The notes under the pieces were generated by a model. The model did no database searches. It was not told the DNA's origin and saw nothing but the letters and a program-made list of their open reading frames with translations. The position numbers and the translations under genes were made by a program. From NCBI GenBank assembly GCA_040751795.1, contig JBFMHR010000001.1, forward strand, positions 337,357 to 401,356: DNA of 64,000 nt, written 5' to 3'. This document shows, piece by piece, positions 17,447 to 53,370 of this stretch. The DNA is from Thermoplasmatota archaeon. GTDB taxonomy: Archaea > Thermoplasmatota > Thermoplasmata > UBA10834. Numbering within the stretch: the first letter of the stretch is position 1; each line of letters opens with the position of its first letter.

Positions 17447-17522
17447 GGGCCCATGGTCTAGTGGCTATGACATCTGCTTGACATGCAGAAGATCGCCGGT
17501 CCGAATCCGGCTGGGCCCACCA
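17447..17522 (+). tRNA. tRNA-Val(GAC): tRNA-Val (anticodon GAC), CCA encoded
   Basis: Hand-folded cloverleaf. Acceptor GGGCCCA/TGGGCCC, anticodon stem TCTGC/GCAGA with loop TTGACAT, T arm GCCGG-TTCGAAT-like-CCGGC, discriminator A, then CCA. Confidence 0.9.
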
Positions 17523-21381: not shown

Positions 21382-23532
21382 TCAGCCCGACCTGGGGAGG
21401 AGCATGTTGAAGACGCACCCCTTGGACGGGTCCCTGGGCACTATGTCCGAGACCCACATCTTCCCGGAGTAGCGGTCCACTATGCTCTTGGCGGCGGCGA
21501 GGCCTATCCCGAAGCCGCCCGTGAGCTCCGAGCGCGAGCGCTTGGTCATCCTGAGCACCTCCCGCTTGAGGGCGTCCGGGACGGACCTGCCCGGGTCCTC
21601 CACCCTGACGAGCCACATGTCCCTCCGGCCCTCCTTCTGCTCCTCCGCAGAGACGGACATCCTGGTCTCCGGCCTCTTGGACGACCTCGACGCCGTCACG
21701 AAGAGGTTGACGAAGGCGTCCTTGAGCAGGGGGTCCGCGGTGACGAGGACCGGGCCCTGGGGGAGCGTCACGGTCACCTCTATCGGCCGGCCGGGGCTCC
21801 TGGCCCGCGCCTCGGCCACCGCCCCGTCCAGCACCTGGCGGAGGTCCGTCCTGGCGAGCTGGGGCAGGGCGTTCTCCCTCAGCCTGGCGAGGGTGCGGAC
21901 CGTGTCGACCAGGTAGACTATGTTGTCCACCTGGGAGTAGGCCTTCTCGACGGCCTGGGCGACCTCCGGGTCGAGGGTCTTCATCGCCCTGAGGGACTCG
22001 ATGTAGGCCATCACCGGGGTGGTGTAGTTCGCTATGTCGTGGGTGAGGAGGTCCATGTGCAGCTGCACCTGGTCCCTGGTGCTCGACACCTCGCCCAGCA
22101 GCCGGGCGTTCTCGACGGCCACGGCCGCGTGGTTTGCGAACATCGTGGCGACCTCCAGGTCCTCCTTCGTGAACACGTCCGGGGGGTACTTGAGGAGCTC
22201 CACGACCCCCAGCACCTCCTTCTTGCCCAGAATGGGCACCGCGAGCATCCGCGAGTGCGTCGCCGGCGTGCCGGGGATGTAGGAGCCCCGCCCGTCCTCC
22301 TCGGTGTCGAGGATTATCTCGGCCCTCTTCGTCCTGGCGACGTGGCCGACGTACCCCTCCTCCGCGGGGAAGTCCCTGTCCCCCATGACCTCGGAGGCGT
22401 AGGGGCCCGTGGCGTAGACCGGGTTCCCCACCTTCCTCGGCCAGTCGAACATGTAGAAGGCGAGCTCGTTGCACGGGATGAGCTCGGCCATCTTCTCCGA
22501 CACGATCCTGTAGATCTCGGAGCTCTCGATCTCCTTCTGGAGGTCCGCGGCCGTCTCTATGAGGGCGGTCTGCGCCCTCGACCTTATGCTGAGCTTCTCG
22601 AAGAGCTCGACGTTCTCCATGATCCTGACTATGTCCGCCCCGAAGTCCTCCGCGATGCTGACCTCGTCAGGGGTGAAGGGCGTCGGGCCGGAGGTGTCGC
22701 CTATGAACATGACCCCCAGGCGGGCGTCGCCCCTCAGGAGCGGCACGACCATGCAGTGGTCGAAGGACATCTGGCCCAGGATCTTCCTCTTCTGCCCGGC
22801 CGACCACGCGGGCGAGATGCACGTCCTCGGGGAGAGGTGCTCGAGCGCCTCCGCGGCCAGCGGGAACGAGTTCAGGAACATCCTGGAGTCCCTCGATATG
22901 GCCACCCCCTTCGCGGAGCAGCCTATGCACATGAGCTCCCCGGTGTCGGGGAGGTACCTGAAGACGGAGACGAAGTCGGCGTCGAAGTAGTCCATGGCGT
23001 TCCTGCAGAACATGGCGAAGGACTGCTCGAGCTCCGACCTGTCCCCGGGGCTGCACGAGAGGCACTTGAGCAGGATCGCCTGCATCTGGAGGTGCTCCTC
23101 CATGAGGAGGGCGATCTCCTCTATGCCCGCGTCCACGGCGAATGACGCCACCCTCCTGGCGCCGGTGGTGTTGGCGTCCGGGACCCTCTCCTGGACGAAG
23201 TCCACGAGTATCCGCCTCAGGATGAGCTGGTTGGCGATGACCCTGCTGAGGTCCATGGTCCTGAGGTGCTCGGACCTGATGACGCTCCGGAGGACCTCCC
23301 TGTTCTTCCTCGACGATGGGTCCTCCACGGAGTCCATGAGCGCGAGCAGGTAGGTCCTGAGCCTCTCCGCCCTCACCTGCGGGGCGGCGACCGACTCCGA
23401 CACGCGCGCGAACGGGACCCTGCCGACCTCGGCGGCCCACCGCTCGACGATGGCCGGCGCCTCGTCCCTGATGAGCCTGATGACCTTCGAGTCCGCGGGC
23501 CCGTTGACCACGGGCCCACGGGATGGATGCAC
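21382..23532 (-). CDS. sensor histidine kinase with GAF domains
   Basis: H-box LTHDIANYTTP and HATPase_c motifs (GGFGIGLAAAKSIV). Two GAF-like regions lie upstream. Confidence 0.85.
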   Translation of the reverse strand: MHPSRGPVVNGPADSKVIRLIRDEAPAIVERWAAEVGRVPFARVSESVAAPQVRAERLRTYLLALMDSVEDPSSRKNREVLRSVIRSEHLRTMDLSRVIANQLILRRILVDFVQERVPDANTTGARRVASFAVDAGIEEIALLMEEHLQMQAILLKCLSCSPGDRSELEQSFAMFCRNAMDYFDADFVSVFRYLPDTGELMCIGCSAKGVAISRDSRMFLNSFPLAAEALEHLSPRTCISPAWSAGQKRKILGQMSFDHCMVVPLLRGDARLGVMFIGDTSGPTPFTPDEVSIAEDFGADIVRIMENVELFEKLSIRSRAQTALIETAADLQKEIESSEIYRIVSEKMAELIPCNELAFYMFDWPRKVGNPVYATGPYASEVMGDRDFPAEEGYVGHVARTKRAEIILDTEEDGRGSYIPGTPATHSRMLAVPILGKKEVLGVVELLKYPPDVFTKEDLEVATMFANHAAVAVENARLLGEVSSTRDQVQLHMDLLTHDIANYTTPVMAYIESLRAMKTLDPEVAQAVEKAYSQVDNIVYLVDTVRTLARLRENALPQLARTDLRQVLDGAVAEARARSPGRPIEVTVTLPQGPVLVTADPLLKDAFVNLFVTASRSSKRPETRMSVSAEEQKEGRRDMWLVRVEDPGRSVPDALKREVLRMTKRSRSELTGGFGIGLAAAKSIVDRYSGKMWVSDIVPRDPSKGCVFNMLLPRSG

Positions 23533-40800: not shown

Positions 40801-41624
40801 GGATAGGCGTGGCGGGAACCCCGGAGCTGAAGAACTTCAGGAAGGTCGCGCAGAAGGTCCTGCAGGAGCTGGAGGACGAGGACCTCGTGTTCGAGGAACG
40901 CACGGGCGAGGCGCTCGGCCTGGACGGGGTGCCGTTGAACAAGCTGAAGGCCGACGTTCTGGTGAGCATCGGCGGCGACGGCACCATACTCAGGAACATC
41001 CAGGCCACGTCGATACCGATACTCGGCGTCAACGCCGGAGTCCTCGGCTTCCTCACCGAGGTGCAGCCCGACGAGATCAAGGAGTCCATCGCGCAGCTCC
41101 TCAGGGGCGACTACAAGGTCGAGAGGAGGCTCAGGCTCAAGGTCGTCGTGGACGGCAAGAGGCTCAAGGACGCCACCAACGAGGCGGTGGTGCACACGGC
41201 CCACGTGGCCAAGATGAGGCACTTCGTCGTATCGATAGACCACAAGCCCGCGACGGACATGCGGGCGGACGGCATCATAGTCGCCACCCCCACGGGCACC
41301 ACGTGCTACGCCATGAGCGTGGGATCGTCCATCATAGACCCGCGGGTGGAGGCGCTGGTGATAGCCCCCATAGCGCCCTTCAGGCTCTCCTCGAGGCCGC
41401 TGGTCGTCCCGGCCAAGAGCTCCATATCCGTCACGCTCCACGAGCCGAAGGAGTGCGTCATGGTGGTGGACGGCCAGGAGGAGGTCTTCCTGGACGGGGA
41501 CGAGGAGATCGTCTTCTCCGCATCGGAGAAGAAGGCGCGGTTCGTCATACTCAAGAGCGAGTTCTACAAGAACCTCGAGGAGAAGCTGATGGCCTCCTCG
41601 CCCATGATAGGGCACAGGCACTGA
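40797..41624 (+). CDS. nadK: NAD(+) kinase
   Basis: GGDGT motif. ATGA overlap with the IMPase stop. Confidence 0.85.
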   Translation: MRIGVAGTPELKNFRKVAQKVLQELEDEDLVFEERTGEALGLDGVPLNKLKADVLVSIGGDGTILRNIQATSIPILGVNAGVLGFLTEVQPDEIKESIAQLLRGDYKVERRLRLKVVVDGKRLKDATNEAVVHTAHVAKMRHFVVSIDHKPATDMRADGIIVATPTGTTCYAMSVGSSIIDPRVEALVIAPIAPFRLSSRPLVVPAKSSISVTLHEPKECVMVVDGQEEVFLDGDEEIVFSASEKKARFVILKSEFYKNLEEKLMASSPMIGHRH

Positions 41625-41641
41625 GGTCGGAAGGGTCAGGG

Positions 41642-42172
41642 ATGCCGGCGGTTGCAGTAGGCGCGATGAGGATCGACTACCCGAAGCGGTGGTTCGCGAT
41701 AGGCTCGGCCGTCGACGCCGCGGCCATGGCGGCCATGCTCTGGATGGCCTACGGGTCGATAGAGGACTTCTCGAGGTACTTCTGGACCGCGTGCGCCCTC
41801 CTTGTCTGCGTCCCCATACTCCTGGTGCTGGTCCCTCCCCTGTTCACGGCCCACCACATCGGCGAGAAGGGCCTCAGGCTAAGGATGGGCCTGCTCATGA
41901 ACACGACCATCCCCTACAGGTACATCGCCGGCATCAGCGGCTCCAACGTGAACTACGGCCCCTTCACCGTCGGCATAGGCGTCAAGTACGTCCCCAAGAA
42001 GGGCACGGTGTTCGTGACATCGTCCTTCACGGGCCTCGTGGCCCTGCAGTTCCACGGGCCCCAGCAGCTCGGGGGCGTCCTGAGGCCCATGGTCACCCAG
42101 GTCGTCCTGAGCGTCAGGGACAGGGACGGGTTCGTCGCCCTCGTGAGGGACAGGGCCGGGCTGGAGGGGTGA
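41642..42172 (+). CDS. hypothetical membrane protein (possible bacterial-PH-like domain)
   Basis: Two TM helices, then a beta-rich domain. True start MPAVAV is at 41642. Confidence 0.5.
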   Translation: MPAVAVGAMRIDYPKRWFAIGSAVDAAAMAAMLWMAYGSIEDFSRYFWTACALLVCVPILLVLVPPLFTAHHIGEKGLRLRMGLLMNTTIPYRYIAGISGSNVNYGPFTVGIGVKYVPKKGTVFVTSSFTGLVALQFHGPQQLGGVLRPMVTQVVLSVRDRDGFVALVRDRAGLEG

Positions 42173-42174
42173 GG

Positions 42175-42573
42175 GTGCCCCTCTTCGACTTCACCAGGGG
42201 CATGGAGCCCGTCAGGGCCATCAGGAGGCGCACCCTGAAGATGATCCTGGAGGCGTCCAAGTCGCAGTACCCCAACGAGTTCGCGGCGATGCTCAAGGCG
42301 GACAAGGGCGTCATCAAGGAGCTCTGGCTCCTGCCTGGGACCGAGTCGGGCGAGACATCCGCGCTCTTCAGGCTGCACATGATGCCGTCTGAGCCGAAGG
42401 TCGTGGGGACCGTGCACTCGCACCCCTCTCCCAGCTGCAGGCCCTCCGACGCCGACCTAGACCTCTTCAACAGGTTCGGGTACTGCCACATCATCGTGTG
42501 CGAGCCCTTCGGCATGAGGAGCTGGGCCTGCTACGACGGGCACGGGGAGCGCAGGAAGCTCGAAGTGGTCTGA
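42175..42573 (+). CDS. JAMM/MPN+ metalloprotease-like protein
   Basis: JAMM motif HSHPSPSCRPSDAD (HxHx7SxxD). GTG start at 42175, or ATG at 42202. Confidence 0.8.
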   Translation: MPLFDFTRGMEPVRAIRRRTLKMILEASKSQYPNEFAAMLKADKGVIKELWLLPGTESGETSALFRLHMMPSEPKVVGTVHSHPSPSCRPSDADLDLFNRFGYCHIIVCEPFGMRSWACYDGHGERRKLEVV

Positions 42574-42589
42574 GGGAGCGCACAGAAAA

Positions 42590-42932
42590 AGCTGCAGCCC
42601 CCGGACGGATTATTGCCGGGCGCACCATTCCGGTGCCCACTATACCGTCCGGGACTTACCTGCATGTGTCCAAGACACGGCGGAGGATAAAAAGATATCC
42701 CGCAGATGTAGCCCCGACCGAGGCACAATCGACTCCCTGCCGCTGGCAGATTGGATCTCCCCTGACTCCCGACGGAGCGCGGCATGAGGGGACTGAGATC
42801 AGGGACGAAATGCAGACCCCGGACGGAGTTTTAGATGGGTACACCATTCCGGTGCCCGCTATACCGCCGGGACTTACCTGCACTTGCCCGAGGTGACGCG
42901 GCGGATAAATATGTATCTCACGGACGTAGCTG
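42590..42932. repeat. two imperfect direct copies (~125 bp each, start-to-start 219 bp) of a structured element in a convergent intergenic region
   Basis: Copy 1 spans 42590-42722 and copy 2 spans 42809-42932. Shared blocks are tgcag-ccccggacgg, caccattccggtgccc, ataccg(t)ccgggacttacctgca, and ggcgga-gataaa..tatc. Confidence 0.55.
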
Positions 42933-42943
42933 AGGCTCCCCCT

Positions 42944-44182
42944 CTACGGTCCGGGCCCTGACTTACCTCGGGACCGGGTCAGAACCACCGCCAGGACCAC
43001 GGCTATGACGATGACTATGGCCACCGCCGCAATGGCCGGCACGCTCAGGCCGAACACAATCTCCTCGCTGCGCTCCACCGACAATGACACGCCCCCGACG
43101 GTCACGGCCCCGTCGCTGTCCTTGAGCTCGTAGGTGATGTCCAGATGGTCCGGGTCCTCGAATGCCCTGGTCACGGTCTTGTCCGGCGACCAGTCCGTGT
43201 CCCATGTCCCGTCGGACTCCCAGTCCCATCTGACCATCACGTCCTCGGGGCGGTCCTCGACGTCGCAGCAGTTGAGCAGCTCGATCGTCACGACGTTGGA
43301 CGGGGAGCTCTCCCTGGTGATGAAGTTGCCGTGGTCGATCGGCGGCGTGTTGACGTAGGCGTCGTTCCCCTCGACGGTGAAGGACGCGATGCCCGCGAAC
43401 GGGGATATGGGCGTGTAGACGACGTAGTCCCCGTCTGGGTACCCCGAGGCGTTCAGGGCCTTGGGCTCGAAGACGACCACCTCGCCAGGGGAGACGGGCT
43501 TGATCGAGGATATGAGGACCGTGTCCATCGGCTTGAATGTGCAGCCGTTCTCCCTGACTACGACCATGTGCCAGAAGTCCTCGACCGAGCCCACGATGCT
43601 GACCTCAGTGTCCCTGTTGTTCGTCAGGACGCACGAGACCTCGTACATGAGCGGCGAGGTCTCCTCCACGGTGACATCGAGGCTCACGCCTTCCCACTCG
43701 GCCATTTCCACGAGGCGGAAGGTCTCGGGCATCAGGCCAACCATGGAGTTGAGCTTGAACACGACGGACCGGTTGACCGCGGATCCGACCGCACTGAGCT
43801 CGAGCACGGGCGGGGTCGAGTTGGTGCTGCGAGCGTCAGGGTACTCGTCGACCATGGTCCAGAACCCCTCAGCCTCCATGGAGGCCAGGACGTCTTCGAA
43901 GAGTCCTGTCTCGGTCTGGATCCACTCCGAGTAGTTCAGAGGGAAGTAGGTCGGGTCCTTGCTGCCGACGTGGACGAAGGCCGACCCGTTCGGGTACAGG
44001 GTCGTGCCCCAGCAGACGGCGGCGGAGCCGTTGAGGTAGTGCTCCGCGCCGCTCAACGACAATATATCCACCTCCGGCGACGACATTGGTACAGCTGCGC
44101 GGTCTGCAGACGGCTGAGAAACCATGGAGGCGACCAGCATCAGCACGGACAGTGCGAGCAAGGACAGTACCACTCGGGACAC
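42944..44182 (-). CDS. secreted surface protein with C-terminal membrane anchor
   Basis: Signal peptide, N-glycosylation sequons, a C-terminal TM helix, and a basic tail. Confidence 0.6.
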   Translation of the reverse strand: MSRVVLSLLALSVLMLVASMVSQPSADRAAVPMSSPEVDILSLSGAEHYLNGSAAVCWGTTLYPNGSAFVHVGSKDPTYFPLNYSEWIQTETGLFEDVLASMEAEGFWTMVDEYPDARSTNSTPPVLELSAVGSAVNRSVVFKLNSMVGLMPETFRLVEMAEWEGVSLDVTVEETSPLMYEVSCVLTNNRDTEVSIVGSVEDFWHMVVVRENGCTFKPMDTVLISSIKPVSPGEVVVFEPKALNASGYPDGDYVVYTPISPFAGIASFTVEGNDAYVNTPPIDHGNFITRESSPSNVVTIELLNCCDVEDRPEDVMVRWDWESDGTWDTDWSPDKTVTRAFEDPDHLDITYELKDSDGAVTVGGVSLSVERSEEIVFGLSVPAIAAVAIVIVIAVVLAVVLTRSRGKSGPGP

Positions 44183-53225: not shown

Positions 53226-53310
53226 GCAGGGATAGCCAAGCCTGGCCAACGGCGATAGATTCAGGGTCTATTCGCGAAGGCGTCCGCCGGTTCAAATCCG
53301 GCTCCCTGCA
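53226..53310 (+). tRNA. tRNA-Leu(CAG): tRNA-Leu (anticodon CAG), class II with long variable arm, CCA not encoded
   Basis: Hand-folded: acceptor GCAGGGA/TCCCTGC, D arm GCC-AAGCCTGGCCAAC-GGC, anticodon stem ATAGA/TCTAT with loop TTCAGGG, variable stem CGC-GAAG-GCG, T arm GCCGG-TTCAAAT-CCGGC. Confidence 0.9.
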
Positions 53311-53370
53311 CATCGCGACATCTGGCTATTTTCAAATCAGAGGGTTTTTGTCTGCTGGCACCCCCCCTGG

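What the first reader, a model, noticed from the sequence alone, without database searches (positions are those of the whole stretch)
42590..42932. Duplicated ~125-bp structured element in a 370-bp convergent intergenic gap: candidate ncRNA pair
A JAMM gene (+) and a surface-protein gene (-) converge on this gap. Between them lie two imperfect direct copies starting at 42590 and 42809. Each copy contains an outer stem (cccggacgg ... ccg(t/c)ccggg), an inner perfect hairpin (gcacc-attcc-ggtgc), and a third hairpin (ggata-aaaag-atatcc or ggata-aatatg-tatc). Differences between the copies preserve the pairings. Archaeal terminators are normally simple T-tracts, so a conserved, duplicated, hairpin-rich unit is unexpected here. 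It is more consistent with a small RNA gene or tandem sRNAs, or a miniature repeat element.
Basis: seen in the sequence. Interest (0 to 1): 0.55.

Follow-up and report, generated by a model that had tools for sequence, protein, structure and literature searches.

The report
Orphaned small-RNA gene pair, DUF3800-X type
The duplicated element is two copies of a ~72-nt structured small-RNA gene on the opposite strand, a diverged archaeal branch of the known but functionally unexplained 'DUF3800-X' RNA family, left here without its usual partner nuclease gene, which was probably deleted by recombination between RNA-gene copies.

Summary
Two ~121-nt direct copies (42593-42712 and 42811-42930, 78% identical) fill the JAMM/surface-protein gap. 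Each copy is a small-RNA gene on the MINUS strand. It has a ~72-nt three-helix rod (cores 42593-42664 and 42811-42882), a BRE/TATA box at -34..-23 and a 10-nt upstream motif. Copy A ends in a T5 tract; copy B has only T3. About 35 distinct homologues in Thermoplasmata/Methanomassiliicoccales metagenomes support the fold (97% of cells paired, 7-9 covarying pairs, controls far lower). G.U pairs fit only the minus strand. In about two thirds of distinct loci the RNA lies tail-to-tail, 1-15 nt from a DUF3800 gene, whose product I modelled as a type-2 RNase H fold. Distant DUF3800 homologues carry Rfam DUF3800-X (RF02984) at the same position. That family shares the architecture and the invariant GUAAG loop, but the Rfam model misses this branch. 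A 95%-identical relative (L066) has JAMM> <RNA-C DUF3800> <RNA-A <RNA-B. The window's state fits deletion of DUF3800 by RNA-C/RNA-A recombination. Function is unknown; most likely an RNA partner or regulator of the nuclease. Verdict: a real ncRNA pair and a new variant of a known orphan RNA class.

The parts
42593..42664 (-). sRNA gene A, 72-nt core: P1 UGCAG/CUGCA, GUAAG loop, P2 UCCCGGACGG/CCGUCCGGGG, internal loop, P3 hairpin with GGAAU loop
   Evidence: CM R1 84 bits, E 3e-21. 72/72 identical to RNA-A of L066. Structure supported by covariation.
42686..42701 (-). BRE/TATA-like promoter box of gene A (TTTTTATC at about -29..-22).
   Evidence: Family-wide A/T is 83-100% at -29..-23 (except -24, 67%), and A is 75% at -32. 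The hairpin is not conserved.
42703..42712 (-). Conserved upstream motif GCTACATCTG (-48..-39) of gene A; role unknown, possibly a regulator site
   Evidence: Position-specific conservation in 36 genes.
42586..42590 (-). T5 tract 2 nt after gene A; archaeal terminator-like. This flank derives from RNA-C of the ancestral arrangement.
   Evidence: A T-run of >=4 lies within 20 nt downstream in 44% of genes vs 2.7% of control windows. Flank origin.
42591..42597 (.). Recombination junction (shared GCTGCAG block). Left of it the sequence matches the RNA-C flank of L066; right of it, RNA-A.
   Evidence: Segment identities: left flank 35/36 to C vs 13/36 to A; body about 97/99 to A. blastn overlap.
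42713..42807 (.). Spacer between the two genes; no recognisable feature; conserved only in the closest relative
   Evidence: 95.9% identical to L066/L067 and no match elsewhere.
42808..42810 (-). Short T3 tract after gene B (weak terminator; read-through toward gene A is possible)
   Evidence: Read from sequence.
42811..42882 (-). sRNA gene B, 72-nt core; same fold as A, with one bulged U in P2 instead of the A-U pair
   Evidence: CM R1 75.3 bits, E 8.5e-19. 71/72 identical to RNA-B of L066.
42905..42911 (-). TATA-like box of gene B (TATTTAT)
   Evidence: Same position as the family-wide A/T peak.
42921..42930 (-). Conserved upstream motif GCTACGTCCG of gene B
42172..42573 (+). JAMM/Prok-JAB gene (context; about 133 aa, start approximate)
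   Evidence: Pfam PF14464, E 3.7e-11. Homologues are 132-134 aa.
42944..44182 (-). 412-aa predicted surface protein gene (context; fast-evolving)
   Evidence: ORF and translation. 84% nt identity to L066, against 95% for the upstream genes.

Best explanation
The gap holds two paralogous, independently transcribed small-RNA genes on the minus strand.

SHOWN BY COMPARISON:
- Each gene has a 10-nt upstream motif, a BRE/TATA box, a 21-26-nt non-conserved spacer and a ~72-nt RNA. The RNA folds as a rod: a 5-bp terminal helix, an invariant GUAAG loop opposite a single-nucleotide bulge, a 10-bp helix that starts with an invariant U.G pair, a large internal loop and a 7-bp apical hairpin. A T-tract follows (T5 for A, T3 for B).
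- The RNA belongs to a family spread through Thermoplasmata and Methanomassiliicoccales.
- The family is normally encoded tail-to-tail, 1-15 nt from the stop codon of a DUF3800 gene, whose product is a ~212-aa type-2 RNase H-fold protein.
- The family shares architecture, the GUAAGUCC motif, the partner protein and its position with Rfam DUF3800-X (RF02984). It is therefore a diverged branch of that motif.
- A 95%-identical relative carries JAMM> <RNA-C DUF3800> <RNA-A <RNA-B <412-aa gene. The window's gene A is an RNA-C-flank/RNA-A-body recombinant and the ~0.85-kb DUF3800 segment is absent. Another relative (L001) retains a single RNA-C-body/RNA-B-promoter recombinant.

INFERRED:
- The three-gene arrangement is ancestral, and the other two states arose by deletion between the direct RNA-gene repeats.
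- The RNA acts in trans as the bound partner of the DUF3800 nuclease, docking through the invariant P1/GUAAG/P2 platform.
- It most likely restrains or directs the nuclease, as an antitoxin-like or msDNA-like partner (roughly 40% likely). Being a guide or a substrate is less likely.
- The window's two genes are either orphans still under constraint or serve a DUF3800 copy encoded elsewhere in the genome.

The confidence given (0.7) is for the identity: minus-strand sRNA genes of a DUF3800-X-like family, orphaned by loss of DUF3800. The mechanistic part is much less certain.
For: - Duplication and uniqueness.
- Homologues.
- Structure: 97.1% of 589 cells pair, 7 pairs change on both sides, and the covariation score is 0.227 vs 0.111 in shuffles (0/500) and <=0.064 for slid partners. 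On 35 distinct sequences there are 9 such pairs. Copies not selected by my search pattern add compensatory changes in helix 2.
- Strand: 97.1% paired on minus vs 87.8% on plus, with 62 G.U cells. CM score is 84 bits on minus vs 13.6 on plus.
- Promoter and terminator.
- DUF3800 adjacency: the neighbour is present in 21 of the 41 listed loci (about two thirds of distinct loci). The arrangement is convergent with a 1-15 nt gap in 18 of the 22 neighbour ORFs listed; L011/L029 are divergent. Pfam PF12686 assignment.
- Protein-side test free of RNA-pattern bias: 5 of 5 DUF3800 loci have a hit just after the stop codon on the opposite strand. Two of those are weak with my model (13 bits) but are confirmed as RF02984 DUF3800-X at 72 and 64 bits, with the same architecture.
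- Deletion history.
- Constraint: RNA cores 143/144 identical between window and L066, vs 95.1% for upstream genes (P = 0.006) and 84% for the 412-aa gene.
- DUF3800-associated RNAs as a known class: PMC5737381.
Against: - There are no transcript data, so the transcription start, the 3' end and expression itself are inferred from sequence signals.
- Copy B has only a T3 tract and alone folds no better than shuffles.
- No DUF3800 homologue exists anywhere in the 64-kb window, so the window's copies may have no partner.
- The Rfam DUF3800-X model does not detect this branch even at E<=10, and my model hits true DUF3800-X members only weakly (13 bits, E about 0.2). Common descent therefore rests on architecture, a short motif and the homologous partner protein.
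- My collection scans required the 5' block, so part of its apparent invariance is ascertainment.
- The direction of the rearrangement (deletion rather than insertion in L066) is an inference.
- The mechanism (protein binding, antitoxin-like role) is untested for any DUF3800 RNA.
Confidence: 0.7

Rival explanations
1. The RNA works mainly as a cis-antisense regulator. It is convergent and 1-15 nt from the DUF3800 stop codon, so a DUF3800 mRNA that reads through would carry a 3' tail perfectly complementary to the sRNA, as in type I toxin-antitoxin pairs that overlap at their 3' ends. In the window, with DUF3800 gone, the genes would have no target.
For: The tail-to-tail arrangement with a 1-15 nt gap holds in 18 of the 22 neighbour ORFs listed. 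No T-tract is evident on the DUF3800 strand beyond the stop codon in the cases read. The RNA persists without the protein, but the protein was never seen without the RNA in my sample.
Against: Strong covariation maintains a specific fold, and an invariant internal loop is kept rather than mere complementarity. Extra paralogous copies lie upstream or farther away and are only about 78% identical. One genome has the divergent arrangement, 203 nt away. [quoted passage not shown]
Confidence: 0.15
2. The window's two copies are non-functional relics. After loss of DUF3800 they are decaying leftovers, and their conservation only reflects how recent the deletion is.
For: No DUF3800 gene is in the window. 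Copy B has a weak T3 terminator and a bulge in helix 2. The L001 lineage has already lost a further copy.
Against: The cores are 143/144 identical to L066, while the flanking genes differ by 5-16%. Both promoters and all helices are intact, and CM scores (84 and 75 bits) are as high as in loci with DUF3800. About a third of distinct loci in other lineages also keep the RNA without DUF3800.
Confidence: 0.12
3. The element acts at the DNA level. It would be a single-stranded DNA hairpin or recombination site recognised by the RNase H-fold protein, i.e. the ends of a small mobile or cassette-like unit rather than an RNA gene.
For: Copies flank cargo genes: RNA-C/DUF3800/RNA-A in L066, RNA/AAA_14-DUF4143/RNA in L030, and inverted copies around DUF3800 in L063 and L068. 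Recombination between copies has remodelled the locus. RNase H-fold enzymes include transposases and integrases.
Against: A BRE/TATA box at a fixed distance and T-tracts mark a transcription unit. Flanking copies are diverged full genes with their own promoters, not identical att-like or TIR duplications. The locus sits at the same chromosomal position (NTP-transferase ... JAMM) in distantly related genomes. The four archaeal reference genomes hit have one locus each. The best structural matches of the protein are RNase H2/H3, not transposases.
Confidence: 0.06
4. The hairpins are 3'-end or terminator structures of the converging JAMM or surface-protein mRNAs, or a dispersed MITE-type repeat.
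For: The location is a convergent gap. The plus-strand fold of copy A is stable (z = -3.95).
Against: The family occurs next to unrelated genes. It has its own promoter. G.U pairs fit the minus strand only, and relative to the 412-aa gene on that strand the units lie downstream of the stop codon but behind their own promoters. Relatives L004-L010 have 41-111-nt gaps at this position with no element. Only two copies exist in 64 kb.
Confidence: 0.02

Closest known systems
DUF3800-X RNA motif (Rfam RF02984; Weinberg et al. 2017, PMC5737381)
   Same: Size is about 73 nt. The architecture matches: a terminal helix, a GUAAG internal loop opposite a single-nucleotide bulge, a second helix beginning U.G/C-G/C-G (uCC...GGg), a large two-sided internal loop and an apical hairpin. 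The partner is the same, a homologous ~210-aa DUF3800 protein (profile E 1e-40 to 1e-44). The position is the same, immediately after the DUF3800 stop codon on the opposite strand. TATA-like boxes are visible upstream by inspection.
   Different: The Rfam model does not detect the window copies or any of the Thermoplasmata-branch copies tested. Helix 2 is 10 rather than 8 bp and has a different sequence. The 5' side of the internal loop is 6 rather than 12 nt. The apical helix is 7 rather than 5 bp. A subclass carries an extra hairpin. In this window the DUF3800 gene is absent.
The wider set of DUF3800-associated RNA motifs (DUF3800-I to -XI), drum and skipping-rope RNAs
   Same: These are structured RNAs defined by genomic association with DUF3800 genes, often with terminators. 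They are not in 5' UTRs, a UAA trinucleotide is common, and their function is unknown. The invariant loop here contains UAA.
   Different: Those motifs are structurally unrelated to each other and, apart from -X, to this RNA. Most are bacterial.
Retron type VII (RT + msr/msd ncRNA + DUF3800 effector; Mestre et al. 2020, PMC7736814)
   Same: A DUF3800/RNase H2-like protein is genetically coupled to a structured non-coding nucleic acid. This suggests by analogy that the nucleic acid holds or controls the nuclease.
   Different: There is no reverse transcriptase here, no msr/msd features, and the lineage is archaeal. The analogy is a lead, not a test.
Type III (ToxIN-like) and 3'-overlapping type I toxin-antitoxin systems
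   Same: A small structured RNA is encoded next to a nuclease gene, and multiple RNA copies occur. In my sample the RNA can persist without the protein but not the reverse.
   Different: There are no tandem short repeats processed from one precursor. Each RNA has its own promoter. Toxicity and neutralisation are untested, and only one member gives a weak PADLOC hit (PDC-M04A, E 1.7e-5).

Membership tests
Rfam RF02984 DUF3800-X RNA | Scores at or above the family's gathering threshold (38.2 bits) with the Rfam covariance model | tested here: not met
   No hit at gathering, nor at E<=10, on window 42400-43100. No hit for other branch members at E<=5 or E<=10 or at gathering. True members L070 and L071 score 72.1 and 63.7 bits in the same run.
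Rfam RF02984 DUF3800-X RNA | Consensus architecture: P1, GUAAG loop opposite a single-nucleotide bulge, P2 starting uCC/GGg, large internal loop, apical hairpin, about 73 nt | tested here: met
   The Rfam consensus and structure line printed were compared with the covariation-supported structure of this family. GUAAGUCC is invariant in all 27 aligned members and is kept as GUAA(G/A)(U/G)CC in copies not selected by the search pattern.
Rfam RF02984 DUF3800-X RNA | Encoded next to a DUF3800 (PF12686) gene | tested here: inconclusive
   Met for the family: 21 of 41 listed loci (about two thirds of distinct loci), plus 5 of 5 loci chosen from the protein side. Not met in the window, where tblastn finds no DUF3800 in 64 kb. 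A 95%-identical relative (L066) has the gene at this very spot, and the window shows a recombination junction there.
Rfam RF02984 DUF3800-X RNA | Reciprocal detection: a model built from this branch finds bona fide DUF3800-X members | tested here: inconclusive
   R1 hits the L070 and L071 DUF3800-X RNAs at exactly their coordinates and strand, but only at 12.9 and 13.2 bits (E 0.27 and 0.21).
Independent archaeal small-RNA gene | BRE/TATA promoter about 25-30 nt upstream of the conserved 5' end | tested here: met
   A/T is 83-100% at -29..-23 (except -24, 67%), with consensus TTTATnT. A is 75% at -32. The spacer between box and RNA is non-conserved.
Independent archaeal small-RNA gene | Oligo-T terminator after the 3' end | tested here: inconclusive
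   A T-run of >=4 lies within 20 nt in 44% of 36 genes vs 2.7% of controls; a run of >=3 in 72% vs 12%. Window gene A has T5; gene B has only T3.
Independent archaeal small-RNA gene | A discrete transcript of the predicted size and strand | not testable with these tools
MITE / dispersed repeat | Many near-identical copies dispersed through a genome, with TIRs and target-site duplications | tested here: not met
   Only two copies, both local, occur in 64 kb. A whole-genome pattern scan of reference genomes gave one locus per genome in all four archaeal genomes hit. Paralogues are 78% identical and carry promoters.
Archaeal H/ACA or C/D box guide sRNA | ACA box 3' of the lower stem with a K-turn or K-loop; or C (RUGAUGA) and D (CUGA) boxes | tested here: not met
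   By inspection of the alignment there is no ACA after helix 2, no tandem G.A pairs, and no C or D boxes in the core. No Rfam snoRNA-type hit approaches threshold.
RNA-antitoxin / nuclease-toxin pair (type III-like) | The protein is toxic and is neutralised by direct binding of the RNA | not testable with these tools
   Only circumstantial evidence: adjacency, the RNA surviving without the protein but never the reverse in my sample, and AbiE-type neighbours in L032 and L071.

The most novel reading that the evidence does not exclude
The GUAAG-loop RNA and the DUF3800 RNase H2-like protein form a two-component RNA-nuclease system, a new kind of RNA-controlled (antitoxin-like) or RNA-directed nuclease module in archaea. 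The RNA genes can outlive the nuclease gene. The natural series full (L066), nuclease-deleted (this window) and single-RNA (L001) would then record the permitted order of loss in such a system.
Probability: 0.3. Interest if true: 0.75.

Novelty: new variant of a known kind. Interest (0 to 1): 0.45.

Why it matters
DUF3800-associated RNAs were flagged in 2017 as candidates for 'sophisticated biochemical function', and their role has remained unexplained. The DUF3800 protein has since turned up as a retron type VII effector and as a Cas12a2/a3 accessory.

This locus adds several things:
- An archaeal branch that the Rfam model misses, so the family is wider than catalogued.
- Archaeal promoter and terminator signals plus G.U asymmetry. 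These fix the strand and boundaries and argue that the motif is a free-standing ~72-nt RNA rather than DNA or a UTR.
- A very tight tail-to-tail coupling to the nuclease gene.
- Three closely related haplotypes showing that the nuclease gene can be absent while the RNA genes stay intact and conserved.

Together these give a concrete, testable hypothesis: the RNA is a bound controller of an RNase H2-like nuclease. They also give defined constructs (the L066 locus) for testing it.

Tried and rejected
- **Rfam on the window and gap:** nothing matched.
- **tRNA or tmRNA:** none in the gap.
- **Bacterial-type promoter/terminator scan:** nothing found, and not applicable to archaea.
- **Exact look-ups of the window's own JAMM and 412-aa proteins:** not on record.
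- **Coding potential of the copies:** rejected by inspection. There are two single-base indels 40 nt apart, conservation comes in blocks rather than codon periodicity, and the gap ORFs are typical high-GC artefacts.
- **H/ACA and C/D box sRNA:** considered because of the stem / internal loop / hairpin shape, and rejected because no ACA, K-turn or boxes are present.
- **Plus-strand RNA:** rejected by G.U/A.C asymmetry and CM score.
- **Bacterial hits of the 19-nt pattern (L012-14, L016, L018-21):** chance matches that share nothing beyond the seed.
- **Origin of the 93-nt spacer:** no match except in the closest relative.
- **Single-sequence DUF3800 homology search:** returned only 4 hits, so it was repeated with an alignment.
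- **PADLOC:** one weak hit only (PDC-M04A).
- **Supplementary files of Weinberg 2017:** not held, so the taxonomic range of DUF3800-X could not be read from the source.
- **Resemblance of the 5' block (AGGUAAGUCC) to RNase P RNA CR-I (GAGGAAAGUCC):** recalled from memory and not tested. No RNase P model hit appeared at E<=10.

Full report
**1. Observation**

The gap between the JAMM gene (+, ends 42573; Pfam Prok-JAB) and a 412-aa predicted surface-protein gene (-, ends 42944) is 370 nt. It contains two direct copies, 42593-42712 and 42811-42930. They are 77.7% identical over 121 nt, with a 42-nt central block at 95%. The shared blocks are absent from 100 shuffles and from the rest of the window. 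Rfam and ARAGORN find nothing in the gap. On the plus strand copy A folds well (z = -3.95), but copy B does not (z = -1.05).

**2. Relatives**

JAMM homologues identify the organism as an uncultured Thermoplasmata archaeon. The closest contigs first found (L001-L003, JAMM 95% identical) have a 147-nt gap with a single copy. More distant relatives (L004-L010) have 41-111-nt gaps and no element.

I scanned reference genomes and metagenomes with the most conserved block. This returned 4 archaeal genome loci and 41 metagenome loci. Eight bacterial hits share only the seed, which fits the number expected by chance.

**3. It is a gene on the minus strand**

Lined up on the window's minus strand, all archaeal instances share one layout:
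- a 10-nt motif GCTACATCYG at -48..-39
- an A-rich, BRE-like stretch (A is 75% at -32)
- a TATA-like box, 83-100% A/T at -29..-23 (except -24, 67%), consensus TTTATnT
- a length-conserved but sequence-variable spacer
- a conserved core of 69-76 nt (about 90 nt in a subclass with an extra hairpin)
- a T-rich tract in many cases: a T-run of >=4 within 20 nt in 44% of 36 genes, against 2.7% of control windows

In the window the cores are 42593-42664 (gene A, followed by T5) and 42811-42882 (gene B, followed by T3).

**4. Structure**

I aligned 27 distinct short-class sequences (A3) and specified three helices. The result was 97.1% of 589 cells forming standard pairs and 7 pairs with changes on both sides. 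The covariation score was 0.227, against 0.111 in shuffles (0/500) and <=0.064 when partners are slid. RNAalifold independently recovered the same rod.

A covariance model (R1) found 55 instances in the loci held. Clusters of 2-3 copies occur in the window, L017, L022, L030 and L063. On the resulting 35 distinct sequences, 9 pairs covary.

My scans forced the 5' block, so its invariance is partly ascertainment. However, copies found only by the model keep GCAGGUAA and add compensatory changes in helix 2, for example UCCUGG/CCAGGG.

Two results fix the strand. First, 62 G.U cells, including an invariant U.G, give 97.1% pairing on minus against 87.8% on plus. Second, R1 scores 84 bits on minus against 13.6 on plus.

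An unfiltered scan of all 64 kb finds only the two copies.

**5. Partner gene**

I clustered the neighbouring ORFs. A ~212-aa protein lies next to the RNA in 21 of the 41 listed loci, about two thirds of distinct loci. Of the 22 neighbour ORFs listed, 18 are convergent with the RNA with only 1-15 nt between the RNA's 3' end and the stop codon; L011/L029 are divergent.

The protein is Pfam DUF3800 (PF12686). It has an invariant DESGD motif and further conserved acidic residues.

I then started from the protein side, which is free of RNA-pattern bias. All 5 DUF3800 homologues sampled across the family have a hit immediately after the stop codon on the opposite strand.

**6. Relation to known RNAs**

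Weinberg et al. 2017 described 11 structurally unrelated RNA motifs (DUF3800-I to -XI) beside DUF3800 genes. Their function is unknown, and no later functional study is in the library.

The RNAs beside the two most distant DUF3800 homologues I fetched are bona fide Rfam DUF3800-X (RF02984), at 72.1 and 63.7 bits (L070, from a Halobacteriota MAG, and L071).

The DUF3800-X consensus has the same architecture as the window's RNA. It has a terminal helix, a GUAAG loop opposite a single-nucleotide bulge, a helix starting uCC/GGg, a large internal loop and an apical hairpin, in about 73 nt.

The Rfam model nevertheless misses every member of the Thermoplasmata branch tested. My model reaches DUF3800-X only weakly (13 bits).

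I therefore class the window's RNA as a diverged variant of DUF3800-X rather than a member by the Rfam criterion.

**7. History of this locus**

L066 (GCA_974322095.1) is 94.6% identical to the window over the upstream 2.4 kb. It carries JAMM> <RNA-C DUF3800> <RNA-A <RNA-B <412-aa gene.

Segment-wise identities show that the window's gene A has RNA-C's 3' flank (35/36) joined to RNA-A's body and promoter (about 97/99) at the shared TGCAG block. The ~0.85-kb segment carrying RNA-C's body and DUF3800 is absent. L001's single gene is RNA-C's body joined to RNA-B's promoter.

I read this as deletion by recombination between direct RNA-gene repeats. The direction of the event is an inference.

No DUF3800 homologue is present anywhere in the window.

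The RNA cores are the best-conserved part of the region. They are 143/144 identical, against 95.1% for the upstream genes (P = 0.006) and 84% for the 412-aa gene.

**8. Mechanism**

*Shown:* this is a structured RNA gene family tightly linked to an RNase H2-like gene.

*Inferred:* the RNA is a trans-acting partner that docks on the protein through the invariant P1/GUAAG/P2 platform, and it controls or directs the nuclease.

I favour an antitoxin-like or msDNA-like restraining role, at about 40%, for four reasons:
- DUF3800 is the effector in type VII retrons.
- In my sample the RNA often survives without the protein (about a third of distinct loci), but the protein was never found without the RNA.
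- There are 1-3 RNA genes per nuclease gene.
- Neighbours are often accessory or defence-type genes. Examples are AbiEii in L032 and L071, AAA_14/DUF4143 flanked by two RNA copies in L026/L030, and DUF4325 in L056.

The rivals are cis-antisense control, relic status of the window's copies, a DNA-level element, and terminator or MITE readings. They are weighed in their own section of this report.

**9. Verdict**

The element is a new variant of a known, functionally orphan RNA class. Interest is moderate. It rises if the RNA-nuclease partnership proves to be a new RNA-controlled nuclease system.

Noticed in passing
window 42703-42712 and 42921-42930 (minus strand); same position in most family members: A conserved 10-nt motif GCTACATCYG (variant CTGATTCCGC in one clade) sits at -48..-39, upstream of the BRE/TATA box of the RNA genes. 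It could be a binding site for a dedicated regulator. Nothing explains it yet.
   Followed up: partly
L026 1814-1905, L030 35-124 and 1619-1710, L036 1299-1389, L050 3177-3268, L056 311-401, L064 3164-3249: A subclass of the RNA (about 90 nt) carries an extra hairpin inserted in the 5' side of the internal loop, which makes a three-way junction. It scores only 27-49 bits with the short-class model.
   Followed up: partly
L030 (RNA, AAA_14/DUF4143 gene, RNA); L032 1118-2071; L056 443-763; L071 440-1798: Where DUF3800 is missing, the gene beside the RNA is often an accessory or defence-type gene. Examples are an AbiEii toxin (convergent, 45 nt away), an AAA_14+DUF4143 ATPase flanked by two RNA copies, and a DUF4325 STAS-like protein. 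L071 has AbiEii/AbiEi just upstream of DUF3800.
   Followed up: partly
L068 1796-3864; L063 1766-2942: L068 has two tandem DUF3800 paralogues, each followed by its own convergent RNA gene, plus an extra RNA copy upstream in the same orientation as the protein gene. L063 has one DUF3800 gene with three RNA copies arranged likewise. The RNA copies therefore bracket the nuclease gene as inverted repeats.
   Followed up: no
window 42944-44182 (minus strand): The 412-aa predicted surface protein gene is only 84% identical in DNA to its L066 ortholog, while the upstream housekeeping genes are 95-96% identical. It is absent from more distant relatives. It appears to be a fast-evolving or variable surface gene next to the RNA locus.
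   Followed up: no
window 53226-53311 (+): ARAGORN calls a tRNA-Leu(CAG) here, but the Rfam tRNA model reported only the tRNA-Val at 17447-17519 at gathering threshold. The discrepancy was not examined.
   Followed up: no
window 42655-42664 and 42873-42882 (minus strand); family 5' block: The invariant 5' block AGGUAAGUCC(C)GG resembles the universally conserved CR-I/P4 5' strand of RNase P RNA (GAGGAAAGUCCGG). This is recalled from memory and not tested. No RNase P model hit appeared at E<=10, and it may be coincidence.
   Followed up: no
window 41689-42573 vs 41303-42172 (+): The mechanical 294-aa ORF that contains the JAMM domain overlaps another long ORF. Homologues are 132-134 aa, so the real JAMM gene probably starts near 42172-42202. 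The preceding ~176-aa gene, conserved in all relatives, has no Pfam family on record in the relatives' annotations.
   Followed up: partly
window 22363-22411 (+): This is the weakest-but-one hit of the RNA model (16.2 bits, E 0.048, 49 nt, 73% GC). It is most likely noise from GC-rich hairpin potential.
   Followed up: no
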